Part shown: piece by piece, positions 36,803 to 53,539 of the stretch
Layout of the letters: each line of letters starts with the position of its first letter
How positions within the stretch are numbered: the stretch's first letter is position 1
Source: Eledone cirrhosa
Taxonomy: Eukaryota
Assembly: GCA_964016885.1 (NCBI GenBank)
Contig: OZ024741.1
Location: 116,436,001-116,500,000 of the forward strand
Direction of reading: 5' to 3'
DNA: 64,000 nt
Translations under genes and position numbers: made by a program
Notes under the pieces: model-generated
Databases searched by the model: none
What the model was told of the DNA's origin: nothing
What the model saw: the letters and a program-made list of their open reading frames with translations, nothing else

Positions 36803-36968
36803 CTTTGGGATCATAGTAGACACTGGAGAGATAAAGTCCAGAAGCTGGTAGGCTCTTGATAGTTGTGTCAGTGTCTTTCATGGAAGGATCGAGTAATTTC
36901 TGTCGGATATCATCAACATTCAGATCTCCAAGTGCCACTTGTACCATAGCACCAACCATACGACGGAT
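36803..36968 (-). CDS. PUSL1: PUSL1 coding exon 7
   Basis: IRRMVGAMVQVALG...SLPASGLYLSSVYYDPK; RRMVG and P..GL.L..V.Y motifs. Confidence 0.93.
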
Positions 36969-36994
36969 CTGAAAGAGAGAAGTAGATATACATA

Positions 36995-39445: not shown

Positions 39446-39533
39446 TCAAAGGTAGATGACATTTCATCAGGGTGCCACACTCTAAGAGCAAACTTTAAAA
39501 ACAAGAAAATACAATGAAAAATTAACAAGTTAC

Positions 39534-39759
39534 CTGTCGAAACAAAAAGGACCGACTGTGAATGTGAATCTCCCAAAATTCCAAGCCAGGATTATGTTGT
39601 TTTAAGGCAGTCCTACCAAGTTTTATGTTGATTGAGACTGTCCTAATAGGACAATCATTTTTCTCATGCAGTGACTTGACAGTAGTAAAGGCAGTGAAAT
39701 CATGAGTTCCTACCATCGCTTCAGCAGCACTCATTATTTTCCTTATGTCCACTGGCTTC
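39534..39759 (-). CDS. PUSL1: PUSL1 coding exon 6
   Basis: KPVDIRKIMSAAEAMVGTHDFTAF...PIRTV...SRSFLFRQ; GxHDF and SFLxxQ motifs. Confidence 0.94.
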
Positions 39760-45409: not shown

Positions 45410-45473
45410 TTCTAATTGTTCCTGAATAGTCACTATCTTCTTGCTTTGGTTCAGACATTGTTTCTGGACACCA
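45410..45473 (-). CDS. PUSL1: PUSL1 coding exon 2
   Basis: ccacAG|t...gaa|GTaagt; (S)GVQKQCLNQSKKIVTIQEQLE matches the GxQ...TVQ..LE motif; phases fit. Confidence 0.88.
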
Positions 45474-45866
45474 CTGTGGCATGCAAAGAGAATCACTTAA
45501 AAATAAAATTCTTTCAACAGATATGTTGTATTGATGAAAAACAAAAAGCAAACAAAACAAGATAACCTCCCTAGTGTTGGTACGATAATGCTGAGGCCCT
45601 AAGCTATATGAAAGTAGAGGCAGTTCTCTAAAAAAATTAAAATTAATTATACCATTAATGTTTACAATATGTTTGAAAGACTCTCTTCTGAAAAGAAACA
45701 AATTGATTGAAACATCATGTATGATACAGTTGTCAAAGTATTTTACACTTGTCATTATTAATATGATTATTATTTTTTATATTAATGCTAATGATAAAGA
45801 ATATATATATATATATATGTCCAACCCATGCTAGCGTGGAAGATGGACATTAAACGATGATGATAT

Positions 45867-45900
<34 letters not shown>

Positions 45901-46218
45901 GATGGCTGCCCCCTCGTTATCGAGTGTGGCCATTGCACGAGAAAAAAATATAAATATATATATATATTAATAACAATAATAATAATTGTTTCTACTTTTT
46001 GGCACAAGGCCAGCAATTATCCCAGTACATTACTGGTACTTTATTTTATCGACCCCGTAAGGATGAAAGGCAAAGTTAACCTCGGTGGGAATTGAACTCA
46101 GATCGTAAAGGGACGTAACTATGCTGGAAAGCATAATCTAACCCTCTACCGATACTGCCAATTCACTAACAACAATAATAATATACATATATATATATAC
46201 ACACACACACGATAGCAA

Positions 46219-49200
46219 TTAACAGTGCTGTGATCGAATGTGGCTTTTTAGCCCAGCCAATGATCTAAAATGTCTTGCACAGAGTCGGCAACCAAAACAT
46301 TCACTGGAAATAGCCGGCTGTGGTTGGAGTTCATGTACTTTTGCATGTTGCTTGAGCCCTCCTGCTGATTTACATTCTCTACCACATGCTTGGCAAGCAT
46401 GATGAGTAGCATCTCCAACAGCAGCCTGGTAATCAACCACTGGTCTTATTTTATGACTGCGAAGATGACTTTTGAGTCCAGCTTTGCTTAGGCAGAGTCT
46501 CGCACAGACGCTGCATGTCAGCACCATAGGAGGACCCTCACCGTCTGGAAGTGCAACAGCAATGCCCTTCCTCACATCCCGCTTTACTTTCTCGTATGTA
46601 ATTCAAGATGCCTCAAAGGCAACTTTTCCCTCATATACAGTCTTTCTCCATTTATTACGATCAGCAGCAACATTTTCTCATGTATCAGCAGAGATGTTAC
46701 CTCTTTTTTGATTTATGTGGCGGTCGTTTTTCTTTAACTAACTCTCCATAAAAGAGTTGTTTTGGTATTCTAGAATCCTTCATCCTGGCAAGGTGACCAC
46801 TCCAACGGAGTCGTTGCTTAAGCACAAGAGCTTCTATACTGTCACACATAGAGCTTTCCAAAATCTCGACATCACTGATGTGGTCCCTCCAGTGAACGCC
46901 ATGGATCCGTCTGAGACACATCTGATGGAAACGCTCCAATTGCTTAAGGTGGTGTCGATATGTGACCCAGGTCTCGCAGGCATAAAGAAGAGAAGAGAGC
47001 ACACATGCCTTGTACACCTTTACCTTTGTCTTCTTGCACATGTCTCGCCAACCCCAGAGTTGCCTTTCTAGCTTTCCGAAAGCATCACTTGCTTTCCTAA
47101 TCCTGAGTGGAATTTCACTATCAAGGTTGCTGTATCTATTGACAGTGCTTCCCAGGTAGACAAACTGATCAACCACTCCAAGTCGTTTACCATACACATA
47201 GATATTTGGTTCACTGTACTGCTTACCAGGGGCAGATTGGTACATGACAACAGTTTTCTTGAGAGTGACAGTCAATCATAGGGCAGTGCAAGCATCAGAA
47301 AATGCATTCAAAATGTGCTGCATATCACTCTCTGTGTGCGCTACAAGATCGCAATCATCTGCATACAAGAGGTCTCTTATGATTGATGTAAATACTTTTG
47401 TCTTTGCAGCAAAGCGCCTGATGTTAAATATGCTGCCTGAGGTTCGATATCAGATGTAAACACCATGCTCGCAATTCCTGAATGCAATACAGAAAACCAT
47501 TGCAAAGTATATGGCAAACAGGGTCAGTGCTGGAATATCCCTGTTTCACTCCATTTTTTACTGAGATAGGCTCCGACATTAACCCAAGCCTTTATATCAT
47601 CATGGAAAGACCTAACTAAAGCAAGGAACTTATCAGGGCAACCAAGTTTCTGGAGAACCTTCCATAATGCATTTCTGTTAACAGTATCGAAAGCTTTTGT
47701 CAGATCGACAAAAACCTGATACAGATCCAAACCTTGTTCTATGCACTTCTCCTGGAGCTGTCTAGCTGAGAAGATCATATCAGTAGTGCCGCGTCCAGCA
47801 CGAAAACCAGATTGACTTTCAGGAAGAACACAATCTGCAATGTGTGTCAGCAGACGGTCCAGAAGCACCCTACATAAAACTTTCCCTACGACAGAAAGCA
47901 ATGATATACCTCTGTAGTTCCCACAATCATTCCTGTTACCCTTTCCCTTGTACAAGACCACCATTACTGCATCTCTCCAGTCCTCAGGTACAGATTCATT
48001 AGCCCATATGCTGCCAAACAAAGAGTGAAGATGTTGCAGGAGTCTCTCACCACCATATTGTAGGTGCTCAGCATGTATGCCATCCATACCTGGAGACCTT
48101 CCACTGTTCAGCTTCAAGATAGCCACTGCAACCTCCACAAGCGTCGGAGGTTCTGCGAGAGCTACTTTCACAGGACTTTCTGGAATGAGATTGAGGAAAT
48201 CTTCATTGACGACAGACGGCTGATTCAAAAGATCATCAAAGTGTTCTCGCCACCTTCGTAGAATTCCTTGAGTCACGAAGAAGTTCTTTGCCATCCTTGC
48301 TGTGAAGCGGTGTCACCAGAGAAGAAGACGGTCCATAAACTTCACGCAAGAGACTGTACAATGGCTTTGTGTTATTGGAATCTCATCAGCCTTCTCACTC
48401 CACCACTGATCCTTCATCTGATTTCACATCCTTGAGTTCCTTATGCAACGTATTCTTCTCCTGTGGTTTTGCCGTCAAGTAGCATGACAGAGCGCGCCTC
48501 TTATCAGCCAACAAGTCTTCTATATGTACATCATTCTCATTAAACCAGTCCTGATGTTTTCTCTGCACCAATCCCAGAACACGCCTGCCTACATCATAAA
48601 CCGACTTTTTAAGGGTCAGCCAATCCTCACCAAGATCTGCAACCTGCATCTCTTCTTGCAATGTCCTCTTCACATTTTTATCCTTAAGACGAGCAGCATT
48701 TAATCTTCTAGGCGGGGCAACACCAGGAGCCCGGATTTTACATTTAGTGATTAGTTTCACTTTTGCGCGTACCAGGCGGTGGTCCATCCAGCACTCAGCT
48801 CCACGAAGAGCACGCACATCCTGTCTGTCATGCATCCTGACTAGGATGTAGTCCAAAAGATGCAGGATGCATCCATGTGGTCTTGAATTTGTTCTTTTGT
48901 TGGAACATGGTGTTGGTAACACACAGATCCAGCTCCTCACACATCTGCAGCAGGAGCATACCATTGTTGTTACACTTTCCCACCCCATGCCTTCCGATTA
49001 CATTCCATGTATTAAAATCCCTACCCACTCTAGCATTAAAGTCACCAAGCACGATGACTTTGTCTGCCTGAGGGATATTTCTTAAAATACCTTTCAAGGC
49101 ATGGTAAAAGGATACTTTTTCTTCATCGACAGAATTCATAGTTGGAGCATACACTCACCAGGGTCGCAATCCTTCCTTTGTCCAGCGGAATTCTCATGGA

Positions 49201-49520
49201 CATAAGACGCTCACTAATCCCTACTGTGAATTCTTCTAATTTATTCACAAGAACAGTCTTAACAGCAAATGCTACCCCAGCCTCTCTTTTGGTTCCTTCA
49301 TCTCTTCCTTTCCAGAAGAATGTATATTCTCCTCAAAATGTCCAGCTAACCTCGTCTCAGATAAAGCCACGATGTCAAGATTGTAACATCGAAGCTCCTT
49401 TGCAACAAGAGTGGTCCTTCGTTCAGGACACTCTAAGGAATCCCTGTCAAGCAGCGTCCATACCTTCCACCACTAAATACCTTATTTGGCTCTATTACAG
49501 TGGCACGATGACGAGCGGCC
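46219..49520 (-). mobile_element. Near full-length decayed RTE-type LINE (APE + RT + three C2H2 fingers)
   Basis: YAPT, VIVLGDFNARVG, LLDYILV..DH (APE); NYRGISLL, ESQSGFR, FVDLTKAFD, LLYADD (RT); three CxxC-x12-HxxxH motifs at the C-terminus (the third with x4 His spacing). Confidence 0.92.
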
Positions 49521-49683
49521 CCAGGCTGTGATAACCTGGGGCCCCTGCCCTTATTGCCAATTATCTTTTTTGTTCCAGAACCTTTATTGCCAATTATCTC
49601 TTTTATATTGTTTTGGAACATCATTGAATTTAAAAAAAAAAATAAATAATAATAATAACAACAATAATAATAATAATAATAAT

Positions 49684-50185
49684 TTCTGAGAAGTGGTATG
49701 AGCATAAGCCAGAGTCAATGATAGAAAACGATCAGGTGAAGGTGCAATGGGATTTTAGGATACAGACGGACAAGAAACTGGAACACAATAGACCTGACCT
49801 GGTGGTTTTGGACAAGGAAAAAAGATTGTGCCTGATTGTAGATATAGCCTGCCCATTCGACACGAGAGTGCAAGAGAAGGAGAGGGAGAAAATTAACCGA
49901 TACCAGGACTTAAAGTGGGAGGTAAAAAGGATTTGGAACTGCCATGAAGTCAAAGTGGTCCCGATTGTCATAGGCGCACTAGGTACTATCTCAAAGAGTT
50001 TCCAGGGATGGTTAAAGAAGATTAGTCCAGCCCCGATTTTTGGAACACTTCAAAAGGCATGCTTGCTGGGAACAGCAAGAACCCTCCGATACGTCCTGAA
50101 TATCTGAGGCTGCAGGTAGTGGCTTGATATTCATTTCAACAAACTTTCCAGTTGAATAACATCAATGACTGACACTCAAAGAACA
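49684..50185 (+). mobile_element. 3' fragment of an R4/Dong-type non-LTR element (restriction-like endonuclease)
   Basis: EKWYEHKPE...WDFRIQTDKKLEHNRPDLVV...IVDIACPFD...EKINRYQDL...LQKACLLGTARTLR; flanked by (TAA)n on both sides. Confidence 0.88.
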
Positions 50186-50464
50186 ATAATAATAATAATA
50201 TACATACATATATATATATATATATGTATGTATGTGTATATATATATATATATATATATAGATATGTATGTGTATATATATGTACAGATACACATATATA
50301 TAAATACATACATATATATATACATACATATATAGATTAAAGTTTAAGCAAAGAATCACTGCTTTCACCCTTAACGGGATCTTCTGAAGATCTCGTTAAG
50401 GGATACATACATATATATATAGGTTCAGGCCAGTGGCAAGGTGTAGAGCTAAACAGAGTGTAAT

Positions 50465-50767
50465 ATAATAATACAGGGACAATTTGTTAAGCCTTCATTA
50501 CGTTTATTGATTAGTGACGCATGTTTCGCTATTGATCAGCTCAAGGTTTAATCTGTATCGATCTGGCCCGACTCTGGAATCAAAAGCTTGTCAGACCTCT
50601 GCTGTTGTAATGACAGAATCATTACAACAGCAGAGGTCCGACAACCTTTTGATTCCAGAGTAGGGCCAGTTCGATACAGATCAAACCTTGAGCTGATCAA
50701 TAGCGAAACGCGCATCACCAATCAATAAACGTAAGGAAGGCTTAACAAATCGTCCTTGTATTATTAT
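50465..50767. repeat. 303-bp inverted repeat (149-bp arms, 5-nt loop)
   Basis: Arms align without indels, 12 mismatches by manual count; loop CAGAA at 50614-50618. Confidence 0.95.
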
Positions 50768-52801
50768 TATTATATATATATATAAAACTTTTGATGATTT
50801 AAACTTAATGATACAATAAAAATATATTTTAAAAAAATTAGGCCCTGAGTGTGTGGCTCTAAGCTATAGCTTATAGGCAAGTCCATCACTGGCGCCATAA
50901 TAAAACTCTGAAGTGGCTGGCATTTATCCAGTTAACATAGAGTAGAGAGAACTTTTCGGCCATGACCAGAACCTGGCAATCTATCAGTGCTGCTACCACA
51001 TTAACCCTTTTGCATTTACATTAGTTTATATTTACTATTGTATTTTCACAGTAAACACTTTATCTCACATAATATCAAATCTACGAGATTTTGATATTAT
51101 TTATTTTGAGAACAATATCTTAACATAAGTATGAGTGACCAGTTATGGCCAGTTTGAACAGAAAGAGCTTAGAGAATTATGGTCGGTTATGGCCAGTTTA
51201 AACGCTAAAGAGTTAAAATGCACCCAGTACATAAAATGGCTGACATTAGGAAGGGCATTCAGATGTAGAAACCATTCCCAAAAGGTAGAGAGGATTTTTC
51301 AGGCACATCAAGGGTACAATAACCTCTCTAGTATTTGTGTCGCAATAAAATGCACCTAGTATACATTGTAAAGCAGTTGGTATTAGGAAGGGCATCCAGT
51401 CATAGAAATTATAACAAAAATAGAATGTATGTAAGAAAGACATAGCGGCAATGAAGTACTTAATTAAGTACTGACTTTGAAACAACCTCATGTAAGCATG
51501 GAAAAATGGATGTTAAACAGTGATGATGATGGTGGTCAACCCATGCCAGCATGGAAAAACATATAAAATGATGATGATGAAACGTAGATGTATTTTTCAG
51601 TTTGATATCCTGAGTTGCTGTATTGGCTTAGTGTATGTTATCTAAGACTGTGTTGCAATTTACATCAGACCAATCTTGATGATATTTTGTTTTTCCTCCA
51701 ATGATTTCTTAATTCATACCAATTCCCGAGGTGATAAGTTCCACTGAAGCCTTCAGTTTGACAGCTAGAGTGACAGTTGTGCAGTTTGCAGCAATTGAGA
51801 ATCTTCAGTGTCTTAACCATTTCCTAATCATATTTCTAATAAAATACACCACATTTCAATTAATTAATGAAGCATTTGGGGAGGTTTACAAAAATAATAT
51901 TAATCATTTCGTTAATAAGATATTTGTAACATAGTTTAATAAAAGGTTCTGATACAAATTTATGTAGGGAGATTTTAATTCAAGTAAGACAGCAATGTGT
52001 TCAGCTGTGGCAGAACCACATCTAGCCAAGCTTTGTAGCTGACACTCTTGTGGATACGATAAGAAAGAATTCAAATAGGAATCCTTCAAAATCTGTGGTT
52101 TTGTTTCATAAAAGCAAATGCAGTTTTAGACGGTATGGTATTAAAAAAGGTTAAAGGGCATATTTGCAATCTGACATCTTTTAATGTGATAGTATTTCCA
52201 ACACTCAGCTCCTTTCATTTCACATGTATGTGTATAACATCTTTAAGGTCTATACACTTGACCATAATGTAAACAAGTGTTTGGATCTGGGATGCATCTA
52301 TAGGGGTCTTGTATTTCTTCTTCTGATGGAAGGTAGTGTTGATAATGGTGAAGTTATGCACATTGCAGAGATTGAAGTCTGCAGTAATTATCGATAGCTA
52401 TACATTATGGTTCTAGACTCTGCTTATTCCTCCACACTCTTGCATTAAAATCATCCATTTAAATGACTGTGCTATTTTGGAATGTTAGTTGGTACCTGAT
52501 CTGGTGACTTATAGAACTAGTTTTTATACTGACAATAAATACATTTTCTTTATTCGAGATCTATTGTCAGCTATACCCTAGGTTTTTATGTAAGCCATTG
52601 CGGCATTGTCTCCCTTGGACACCAATTACACTAACAAGATTAATGTAACGGAGTTATTTCCATTATATTCAAAGTTAAAGAAAACAAACTTGATTTTGTC
52701 TTTCACACCTTTGGATCAATAAAACAACCAGCAACTAACAATACTTAAAAAAAAAAGTTATTCCACTCTATGTTAATCACTTACAAAACTTAACCTTGTC
52801 T

Positions 52802-52840
<39 letters not shown>

Positions 52841-53361
52841 AACGTGTTTCCCTGTTAGCATGGGTTGGACGGGTCTTCACAGACTTAGTCTGAGCTACTG
52901 ATCTCTCAGAAGAGTCGGGGACGCATCTCGCACGTTACATAGTATACTGAGTGCATTTTATCGTGCCACCAGCACTAGGGAGGTTGCCATGTATCGATAT
53001 TACTGAAGAGTCCATTATATCTTTTGTGTGCCAAGTTTTCTACGGTTAGATGCCTTTCCTATCACCAACCGCTTACTGGGGTATACTGAGTGCGTTTTAT
53101 CGGGCACCAACACTAGAGAAGTTGTCATGCTTATATATATATATATAAGTTGGGTGAAGACAACGGAAGAAGAAACGAAACACAAGATCGTCCTTTATCA
53201 GTCGACCTCTGGAGGTTTTTGTGACTTCAGTACACATTTGTTAACAAAGAATGTTTACGTCGAAGGTTCTCCGAATTAAAAAGTGACTATTAAAAACAAA
53301 TACACTATTAAAAAGAAGTACACAATATACGAGTCCTTCATTTAGTTTATTAAACAAACTC

Positions 53362-53404
<43 letters not shown>

Positions 53405-53492
53405 TAATGTGCGTGTCCGTATGTTTTAAAAGAAATAATACAGTTAGTAGAAGGAAGAGAGACATCAAAGAAATGAATAGTGGTTTTATTAC

Positions 53493-53539
53493 CTGTAATT
53501 CGTTCCAATATACGACAAGAATATTAAAAAGCGTCCCAT
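53493..53539 (-). CDS. PUSL1: tRNA pseudouridine synthase-like 1 (TruA family), coding exon 1
   Basis: ATG at 53539; MGRFLIFLSYIGTNY(S), the TruA N-terminal YxGTxY motif; donor ag|GTaata. Confidence 0.85.

What the first reader, a model, noticed from the sequence alone, without database searches (positions are those of the whole stretch)
50465..50767. Fold-back of two inverted hammerhead-ribozyme-like cassettes in PUSL1 intron 1
Seen: 149-bp arms with 12 mismatches and no indels, so an old genomic palindrome rather than a read artefact. Reading outward from the centre, the arm consensus is GGT-CTGACAA-[GCTTTTGAT...ATCAATAGC]-GAAAC-GCGC-GTC-ACC..AATAAA. Established: minimal type I hammerheads of Penelope pseudo-LTRs and retrozymes have CUGANGA / stem II / GAAAC-palindromic loop-GUC and act as dimers. 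Inference: this is an inverted pair of such cassettes with an unusually long (about 60-nt) stem II. The GUC-intact copy (about 50513-50597) is on the PUSL1 sense strand, so the pre-mRNA could fold either as a ribozyme or as a long dsRNA hairpin (ADAR/Dicer substrate). Caveat: both arms have A at the conserved G8 position and stem I is only about 3 bp, so it may be inactive.
Basis: partly seen in the sequence, partly recalled or inferred. Interest (0 to 1): 0.75.

Follow-up and report, generated by a model that had tools for sequence, protein, structure and literature searches.

The report
Mirror-image Penelope stubs, broken hammerheads
This intron holds two cut-short ends of a very common Penelope-like jumping gene joined head to head, a known layout; their hammerhead self-cutting RNA motifs are mutated and would likely be inactive, and the main subfamily carries an unusual core letter predicted to weaken the motif.

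Summary
The inverted repeat is real (149-nt arms, 12 mismatches) and lies in the first coding intron of a minus-strand TruA/PUSL1-like gene. It is not a MITE or a retrozyme. Each arm is the 3' end (pseudo-LTR) of a high-copy Penelope-like retroelement, traced here to an RT + GIY-YIG ORF that has the motifs of the Hydra clade. Head-to-head pairs with a tail on one arm only are this family's usual insertion form (33 of 56 loci). The hammerhead is real at family level: stems I and II covary between subfamilies and stem II is about 60 nt. The A at G8 and the U at position 4 are CpG decay. The subfamily master reads CCGACGA (U4C; 334 versus 75 canonical of 703), while a sister subfamily is canonical. 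This copy is likely dead: G8A, a broken helix-III palindrome, ribozymes on opposite strands, and a predicted -245 kcal/mol hairpin. Editing and small RNAs are untested. The scan reported such Hydra-clade stubs with variant hammerheads before, in this and other genomes. The residual interest is U4C plus a predicted core-masking helix.

The parts
50465..50613 (-). Left arm: 5'-truncated pseudo-LTR of a Hydra-clade Penelope-like element (subfamily A), sense to the host pre-mRNA
   Evidence: 7 differences from the subfamily majority over 115 nt, 6 at CpG
50509..50599 (-). Left hammerhead-like unit: core C3 at 50594 (CTGACAA, G8A), ~60-nt stem II, GAAAC, helix-III palindrome broken (ACATGCGT), C17 at 50516
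50420..50464 (-). Partial 'tail' (about 45 of about 100 nt) on the left arm only; in full elements this sequence leads into the ORF start
   Evidence: arm matches reference 71-270; L259, L263, L264, L265
50614..50618 (.). Head-to-head junction; both arms begin at the family's common 5' truncation zone about 20 nt upstream of the core
   Evidence: 59 of 91 hits in pattern-picked loci start at reference 60-89; the sample is biased by the pattern
50619..50767 (+). Right arm: second 5'-truncated pseudo-LTR, no tail, antisense to the host pre-mRNA
50633..50723 (+). Right hammerhead-like unit: core C3 at 50638 (CCGACAA: U4C as in the master, plus G8A), G10.1 to C, G16.2 to A, C17 at 50716
50403..50421 (.). 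(TA)n-type run, left flank (insertion target; a target duplication cannot be told)
50768..50783 (.). (TAT)n/(TA)n run, right flank
53493..53539 (-). First coding exon of the TruA/PUSL1-like host gene
45410..45473 (-). Second coding exon of the host gene; the intron 45474-53492 holds the repeat

Best explanation
The repeat is one insertion of two 5'-truncated 3' ends (pseudo-LTRs) of a high-copy Penelope-like retroelement with Hydra-clade motifs, joined head to head in a (TA)n run, and its two hammerhead motifs are likely dead passengers. Inferred mechanism, by analogy to published Penelope work: the element's GIY-YIG endonuclease nicks AT-rich DNA; reverse transcription starts at two sites about 100 nt apart in the pseudo-LTR/ORF-leader RNA, one giving the tailed arm and one the tail-less arm; both cDNAs stop early and are joined at their 5' ends; the arms then decayed, mostly at CpG. 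In host pre-mRNA the antisense arm is made first and the sense arm would zip onto it, so the ribozyme is predicted not to fold. At family level the motif is a long-armed type I hammerhead predicted to need dimerisation through its ACGCGCGT palindrome; the master of this subfamily carried U4C, likely a weakened core.
For: Shown: 3302 first-look candidates and 703 exact-flank matches. The arm lies downstream of the shared body in 29 of 30 loci picked by the body (the query locus included), and downstream of the endonuclease in 6 of 25 loci picked by it, inverted at the 5' end in 4 more. Single loci run RT part - endonuclease - UTR - arm - tail (L189, L192), and a pseudo-LTR plus tail sits in front of the ORF start (L263; partial in L259, L264, L265). 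ORF motifs RWR, ADKT, YRDD, CxCx5C linker, no CxxC between the GIY and YIG halves, CxxC and CxH around E/N match the Hydra definition and alignment in PMC8557442. Head-to-head partner in 33 of 56 loci; of 30 adjacent pairs 25 are tail/no-tail, 5 short/tail, none tail/tail. 3' ends pile up at two points: 78 and 72 of 211 hits. Paired arms are more alike than unpaired (8.6% versus 12.5% mismatch, 18 pairs; this locus 8.2%). Covarying pairs in stems I and II. G8A in both arms, hairpin -245.3 kcal/mol, helix-III dimer -4.5 and -8.1 versus -13.3 for the majority. In print: inverted 5'-truncated copy and one-sided tail (PMC8557442, PMC3846280), tail equals the gap between two RT start sites and hammerhead mutants do not block insertion in vitro (PMC11167929).
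Against: Rfam finds no hammerhead here and RNAalifold does not recover the hammerhead fold. Pfam support for the parent is weak: GIY-YIG E 0.013-0.019, below cut-off, and no RVT_1; BLASTP to a neighbouring Penelope RT is not significant, so the clade call rests on motifs compared by eye, with no tree. Covariation reflects a few subfamily-level events, two measures did not beat the shuffles (115/500 and 66/500), and two stem-II pairs are often broken (20 and 14 of 36). The tail (~100 nt) is longer than the published 30-40 bp. No intact full-length copy was seen. No activity or RNA data.
Confidence: 0.9

Rival explanations
1. The hairpin is used by the host as a long double-stranded RNA (A-to-I editing or small-RNA source) that affects the PUSL1-like transcript. 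This is compatible with the origin given above and adds a function.
For: A near-perfect 149-bp duplex is predicted on the sense strand. Such duplexes are generic ADAR/Dicer substrates (established knowledge).
Against: Divergence between the arms (8.2%) equals the family average for paired arms (8.6%), so nothing points to selection on pairing. Many loci have the same layout, so editing alone would not show a function.
Confidence: 0.07
2. The sense arm is an active intronic hammerhead that cuts the pre-mRNA.
For: The sense arm keeps CUGA, GAAAC, GUC and the base of stem II; minimal Penelope hammerheads cleave weakly as dimers (PMC4209133).
Against: C3-A8 mismatch; mutations in the CUGA turn other than the C3:G8 swap gave low activity in a full mutagenesis (PMC9901934 passage); palindrome broken (dimer helix -4.5 kcal/mol); no second sense copy in the window; the antisense arm out-competes by about 220 kcal/mol.
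Confidence: 0.02
3. It is an ordinary MITE (DNA transposon) with long terminal inverted repeats.
For: Short, palindromic, TA-flanked, high copy.
Against: 23 of 56 loci have no inverted partner; partners start at scattered points (reference 20-290) and end asymmetrically; the arm is the 3' end of an RT-endonuclease element.
Confidence: 0.01

Closest known systems
Hydra clade of C-terminal-endonuclease Penelope-like elements (Craig et al. 2021, PMC8557442), e.g. Hydra-1_Amil, Hydra-1_Obim, Penelope-13_HM
   Same: RW(K/R), DKT, CxCx5C linker, no CCHH, CxxC/CxH around E and N, (TA)n targets, hammerhead in the pseudo-LTR; Penelope-13_HM is listed with a 5'-truncated inverted copy at its 5' end.
   Different: All Hydra hammerheads listed in its File S2 have a CUGA core and short stems II with loops of 3-10 nt, and none has the GCGC helix III. 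Here stem II spans about 60 nt, the master of the main subfamily has U4C, the 3' UTR reaches about 1.7 kb and the tail about 100 nt. The Hydra-1_Obim hammerhead is a different sequence.
Minimal type I hammerheads of Penelope pseudo-LTRs (Cervera and De la Pena 2014, PMC4209133)
   Same: Short stem I, G10.1-C11.1, palindromic helix III for dimer formation, many solo copies, pairs on opposite strands 100-700 bp apart.
   Different: Stem II far longer than 7-8 bp; no extra base after A9; the core variant is U4C, not U3-A8.
Poseidon element of Anolis (Frangieh et al. 2024, PMC11167929)
   Same: Two preferred 3' ends defining an optional tail; AT-rich targets.
   Different: Other clade; tail 30-40 bp there; its hammerhead overlaps the start codon, whereas here the ORF starts about 270 nt downstream of the core.
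Non-LTR retrozymes (bioRxiv 10.64898/2026.07.22.740005)
   Same: Non-coding, type I hammerhead, related to Penelope pseudo-LTRs.
   Different: Retrozymes are head-to-tail tandem arrays; this locus is head-to-head and the sampled family loci show no arrays.

Membership tests
Penelope-like element, Hydra clade | Single ORF with RT followed by C-terminal GIY-YIG endonuclease | tested here: met
   L092/L246, L189, L192; Pfam GIY-YIG only below cut-off, RVT_1 not hit; all copies seen are broken
Penelope-like element, Hydra clade | RWK motif and DKT in place of DKG | tested here: met
   RWR in L259, L263, L265 and ADKT in L255, L259, L265; R replaces K
Penelope-like element, Hydra clade | CxCx5C linker, CCHH absent, CxxC and CxH beside the conserved E and N | tested here: met
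   L092, L100, L103, L104 translations against the definition and alignment
Penelope-like element, Hydra clade | (TA)n insertion bias | tested here: met
   Flanks of this locus and many copies, by eye, not counted
Penelope-like element, Hydra clade | Pseudo-LTR, partial tandem or inverted copies, one-sided tail | tested here: met
Penelope-like element, Hydra clade | Phylogenetic placement of the RT | not tested
   Reference sequences were seen only as supplement text; no tree built
Neptune clade | CX2-5CxxC linker and CCHH motif in the endonuclease | tested here: not met
   One cysteine only between the GIY and YIG halves; linker CxCx5C
Type I hammerhead (family level) | Core CUGANGA | tested here: not met
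   Subfamily A (this locus): CCGANGA 334, CTGANGA 75 of 703. Met in sister subfamily B: U at position 4 in 96 of the first 100 listed of 319 (hand count)
Type I hammerhead (family level) | GAAA, A15.1-U16.1, H17, G10.1-C11.1, palindromic helix III | tested here: met
   Majority in subfamilies A, B and D
Type I hammerhead (family level) | Covarying stems I and II | tested here: met
   Pair 12:67 UA 14 / CG 11 / GC 2; 14:65 UA 22 / CG 10; stem I outer pair AU 20 / GC 10 of 36 rows; 88.5% paired versus 20-40% when slid; few independent events
Type I hammerhead (this copy) | C3-G8 pair and intact helix III | tested here: not met
   G8A in both arms; palindrome broken in both
Type I hammerhead | Self-cleavage | not testable with these tools
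   Needs an in vitro assay
MITE | Always two terminal inverted repeats with fixed ends and a target duplication | tested here: not met
Non-LTR retrozyme | Head-to-tail tandem units each with a hammerhead | tested here: not met
   2 of 56 loci have a second direct-orientation hit and neither includes the core

The most novel reading that the evidence does not exclude
The long stem II carries a built-in off-switch: its GUCGGG segment pairs with the catalytic core, and U4C both weakens catalysis and turns a wobble of that helix into a C-G pair, so the most abundant subfamily spread with a silenced hammerhead while a sister subfamily kept a canonical one. The two subfamilies would be a natural experiment on whether Penelope hammerheads serve the element or only ride on it.
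Probability: 0.2. Interest if true: 0.55.

Novelty: new variant of a known kind. Interest (0 to 1): 0.3.

Why it matters
The locus itself is an ordinary dead insertion in a known layout. The family matters a little more. The role of hammerheads in Penelope-like elements is open (PMC8557442 suggests they may be parasites of the element; PMC11167929 found them dispensable for insertion in vitro). Here two closely related, similarly aged subfamilies (non-CpG divergence 0.050 and 0.054) differ at core position 4, and both multiplied to hundreds of exact-flank copies, which gives a ready pair for cleavage assays. A practical lesson: CpG decay turns CCGACGA into CTGACGA, so single copies can look canonical when the master was not.

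Tried and rejected
Rfam scan: only generic microRNA hairpin models, all below their gathering scores; no hammerhead. L011 seemed to link the arm to an RT, but that RT belongs to another Penelope-type family: none of the other 19 loci fetched with it holds the arm; dropped as evidence. My first label Neptune was rejected after reading the clade definitions. A U4 sub-lineage within subfamily A was sought and not found: T4 is linked only to other CpG changes. The two CpG changes shared by both arms (G8A and position 48) show no linkage among 37 copies picked without regard to the arm (1 double); a G8A master is not supported. Sequencing runs: no RNA holder listed. Three DNA runs of one sample were laid; one contig matches 50590-50660 without a difference but has under 31 letters on one side of the junction, and no empty allele was seen; inconclusive. 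Metagenome scan for a U4C long-arm pattern: 46 hits, all GC-rich and without similarity to the arm; chance. The core-masking helix shows no covariation beyond shuffles (158/500 to 396/500), and folding of the majority is window-dependent (stem II probability about 0.5 in 95 nt; 0.08 in 115 nt). Lunse et al. 2016 (PMC5785218) is not held, so a prior report of U4C in Penelope hammerheads cannot be excluded. The look-up of earlier findings by sequence gave one unrelated note.

Full report
1. Observation. The inverted repeat is as described: arms 50465-50613 and 50619-50767, 149 nt, 12 mismatches, no indels, 5-nt spacer. It lies between (TA)n-type runs. The host gene is a TruA-family gene on the minus strand (PF01416 at 36810-36971 and 39507-39728). 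Its first coding exon is 53539-53493 and the second 45473-45410, with matching splice phases; the third carries SSRTDAGVHA, which I recall as the PUSL1 motif. So the repeat is in the first coding intron and the left arm is sense. Rfam gives only generic hairpin hits below their cut-offs.

2. It is a high-copy repeat. One arm has 3302 first-look candidates in the 3.0-Gb genome (40 scored), and a flank pattern that leaves the 7-nt core free has 703 exact matches, control 0. Walking upstream: a 396-nt body stretch is followed by the arm in 29 of 30 loci, the query included; two loci share 1.7 kb that ends in coding sequence; of 25 loci picked by that coding piece, 6 have the arm downstream on the same strand and 4 have an inverted arm at the 5' end. 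L189 and L192 run RT part, endonuclease, UTR, arm, tail in one piece. L263 has a whole pseudo-LTR and tail in front of the ORF start; L259, L264 and L265 have parts of it. All ORFs seen are broken.

3. Which Penelope-like clade. The ORF shows RWR, ADKT, a D-I-A-N-Y-Y motif A, YRDD, a CxCx5C linker, IVYQ...YTYIG with a single cysteine between, and CRLC...E...N...CRH. These are the features by which PMC8557442 defines the Hydra clade (section 11), and the alignment in its supplement shows the same blocks. Neptune needs CCHH and is excluded. Weak points: Pfam gives GIY-YIG only below cut-off and no RVT_1, BLASTP to a neighbouring Penelope RT is not significant, and I built no tree.

4. The fold-back is the usual insertion form. 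Of 60 loci fetched by core pattern, 3 were dropped as duplicates and 1 gave no anchored hit; 33 of the remaining 56 have a head-to-head partner within 1.5 kb. Among 30 adjacent pairs, 25 are tail/no-tail, 5 short/tail and none has two tails; 3' ends pile up at two points about 100 nt apart (78 and 72 of 211 hits). Partners begin at scattered points, so these are truncations and not terminal inverted repeats. Paired arms differ by 8.6% against 12.5% for unpaired arms, and share 38% against 9% of their variants (18 pairs), as expected for one event from one template; this locus differs by 8.2%. In print: inverted 5'-truncated copies and a one-sided tail (PMC8557442; PMC3846280), and the tail as the gap between two RT start sites (PMC11167929). 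Applying that mechanism here is inference.

5. The hammerhead at family level. The majority is: stem I (3 bp, 2-nt bulge, 2 bp), core, stem II of about 60 nt from G10.1 to C11.1, GAAAC GCGC GUC, then AATAAA. Sister subfamilies were found by pattern. On 36 natural copies (12 A, 12 B, 10 D/C and the two arms) 88.5% of cells pair, against 20-40% when slid. Pair 12:67 is UA/CG/GC (14/11/2), 14:65 is UA/CG (22/10), and the outer stem I pair is AU/GC (20/10). Against: these are a few subfamily-level events, two pair-count measures do not beat the shuffles, pairs 13:66 and 15:64 are often broken, and RNAalifold predicts another fold.

6. The core. In subfamily A, CCGANGA has 334 and CTGANGA 75 of 703 matches. 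In the first 100 listed, T at position 4 (22) and A at 5 (13) mirror T at 7 (19) and A at 8 (10) (hand count): two CpG sites decaying alike. T4 copies have more CpG decay elsewhere (0.205 versus 0.124), equal non-CpG divergence (0.041 versus 0.044) and no linked diagnostic site (this sample was enriched for T4 on purpose). So the master read CCGACGA, that is U4C with G8 intact. Subfamily B (319 matches) has U4 in 96 of the first 100 listed (hand count). C4 is also seen in 7 of 8 D1 and 2 of 3 D2 copies, U4 in 2 of 2 C copies; 30 of 183 copies were unclassified and left out. All Hydra hammerheads in File S2 of PMC8557442 have CUGA and short stems II, so U4 is likely ancestral. U4C is known as a natural viroid variant with much lower activity in vitro that still permits infection (PMC3088659). 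I found no paper reporting it in Penelope-like elements, but Lunse et al. 2016 is not held and its text or supplement may cover it.

7. This copy. Both arms carry G8A; the left also has a broken palindrome and a CpG-derived U4 that makes it look canonical; the right has G10.1 to C and G16.2 to A. Helix-III dimers are predicted at -4.5 and -8.1 against -13.3 kcal/mol. The two motifs are on opposite strands, so a transcript holds one motif and its antisense; the hairpin is predicted at -245.3 kcal/mol against -25.2 for the arm alone. Cleavage is very unlikely. Editing or small RNAs could not be examined (see Tried and rejected).

8. The lead that remains. RNAalifold pairs the core with a GUCGGG segment inside the long arm. 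U4C makes this helix Watson-Crick at position 4. In 115-nt folds its probability is 0.89 for the A majority, 0.86 for D1 and 0.0 for B; among natural A copies 0.66 with C4 (26) and 0.16 with T4 (8). The complementarity beats shuffles of the insert (0.002 for A, 0.013 for B and D1; found after the fact), but there is no covariation beyond shuffles and the result depends on the window folded. It is a hypothesis.

9. Earlier findings and papers. After my own Hydra assignment I looked up the scan's notes: six earlier notes, in this and other genomes, report the same kind of Hydra-clade or Penelope head-to-head stubs, some with U4C or long stems II. They are unchecked AI notes and not support, but this kind of thing has been found before in the scan. 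Seen of each paper: PMC4209133 parts 1-2 of 4; bioRxiv 10.64898/2026.07.22.740005 part 1 of 5; PMC8557442 passages, section 11, supplement parts 1, 2 and 52 and one search; PMC3088659 passages and section 8; PMC3846280, PMC6765202, PMC11167929 and PMC9901934 passages; PMC3376415 search listing only; PMC5785218 nothing.

10. Verdict. The locus is a dead insertion of a known kind in a known layout; the family's long-armed U4C hammerhead is a variant worth a simple assay. Interest 0.3.

Noticed in passing
L038, L049, L053 (3' ends downstream of the endonuclease ORF): A second, Penelope/Poseidon-type family (RVT_1 just under and GIY-YIG over the Pfam cut-off, CxxC between GIY and YIG) whose 3' end has a hammerhead-like motif starting TTGATAA, which would be the known U3-A8 core variant with a short stem II.
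   Followed up: no
window 49646-50200 (+): 3' end of a LINE with a restriction-like endonuclease motif (PD...D) followed by (TAA)n; no Pfam hit; the label R4/Dong-like is recalled.
   Followed up: partly
window 46219-49470 (-): Broken LINE with endonuclease-like, RT (RVT_1, E 8.6e-17) and C-terminal zinc-finger-like pieces in the same intron.
   Followed up: partly
L259, L263, L264, L265; window 50502 (-) and 50730 (+): A GTAAT donor-like site just after AATAAA in the pseudo-LTR and a CCTACCTAG acceptor-like site just after the tail suggest an intron of about 155 nt in the 5' UTR, as described for Penelope; older subfamilies lack the GT.
   Followed up: no
pattern-picked loci L116-L175: 5' ends pile up 5-35 nt upstream of the hammerhead core near a TCATTC initiator-like motif (59 of 91 hits start at reference 60-89), which may mark a transcription start or an RT stop; the sample is biased by the pattern.
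   Followed up: partly
window 50345-50400 and 51030-51180: Two further very high-copy short repeats flank the element (contig depth near one million in three DNA runs).
   Followed up: no
L182:1501-1541: A different hammerhead-like motif with canonical core, a short stem II and the same GAAAC GCGC GUC, next to (TA)n.
   Followed up: no
L090: Several long near-perfect inverted repeats (280-915 bp) of other sequence within 10 kb.
   Followed up: no
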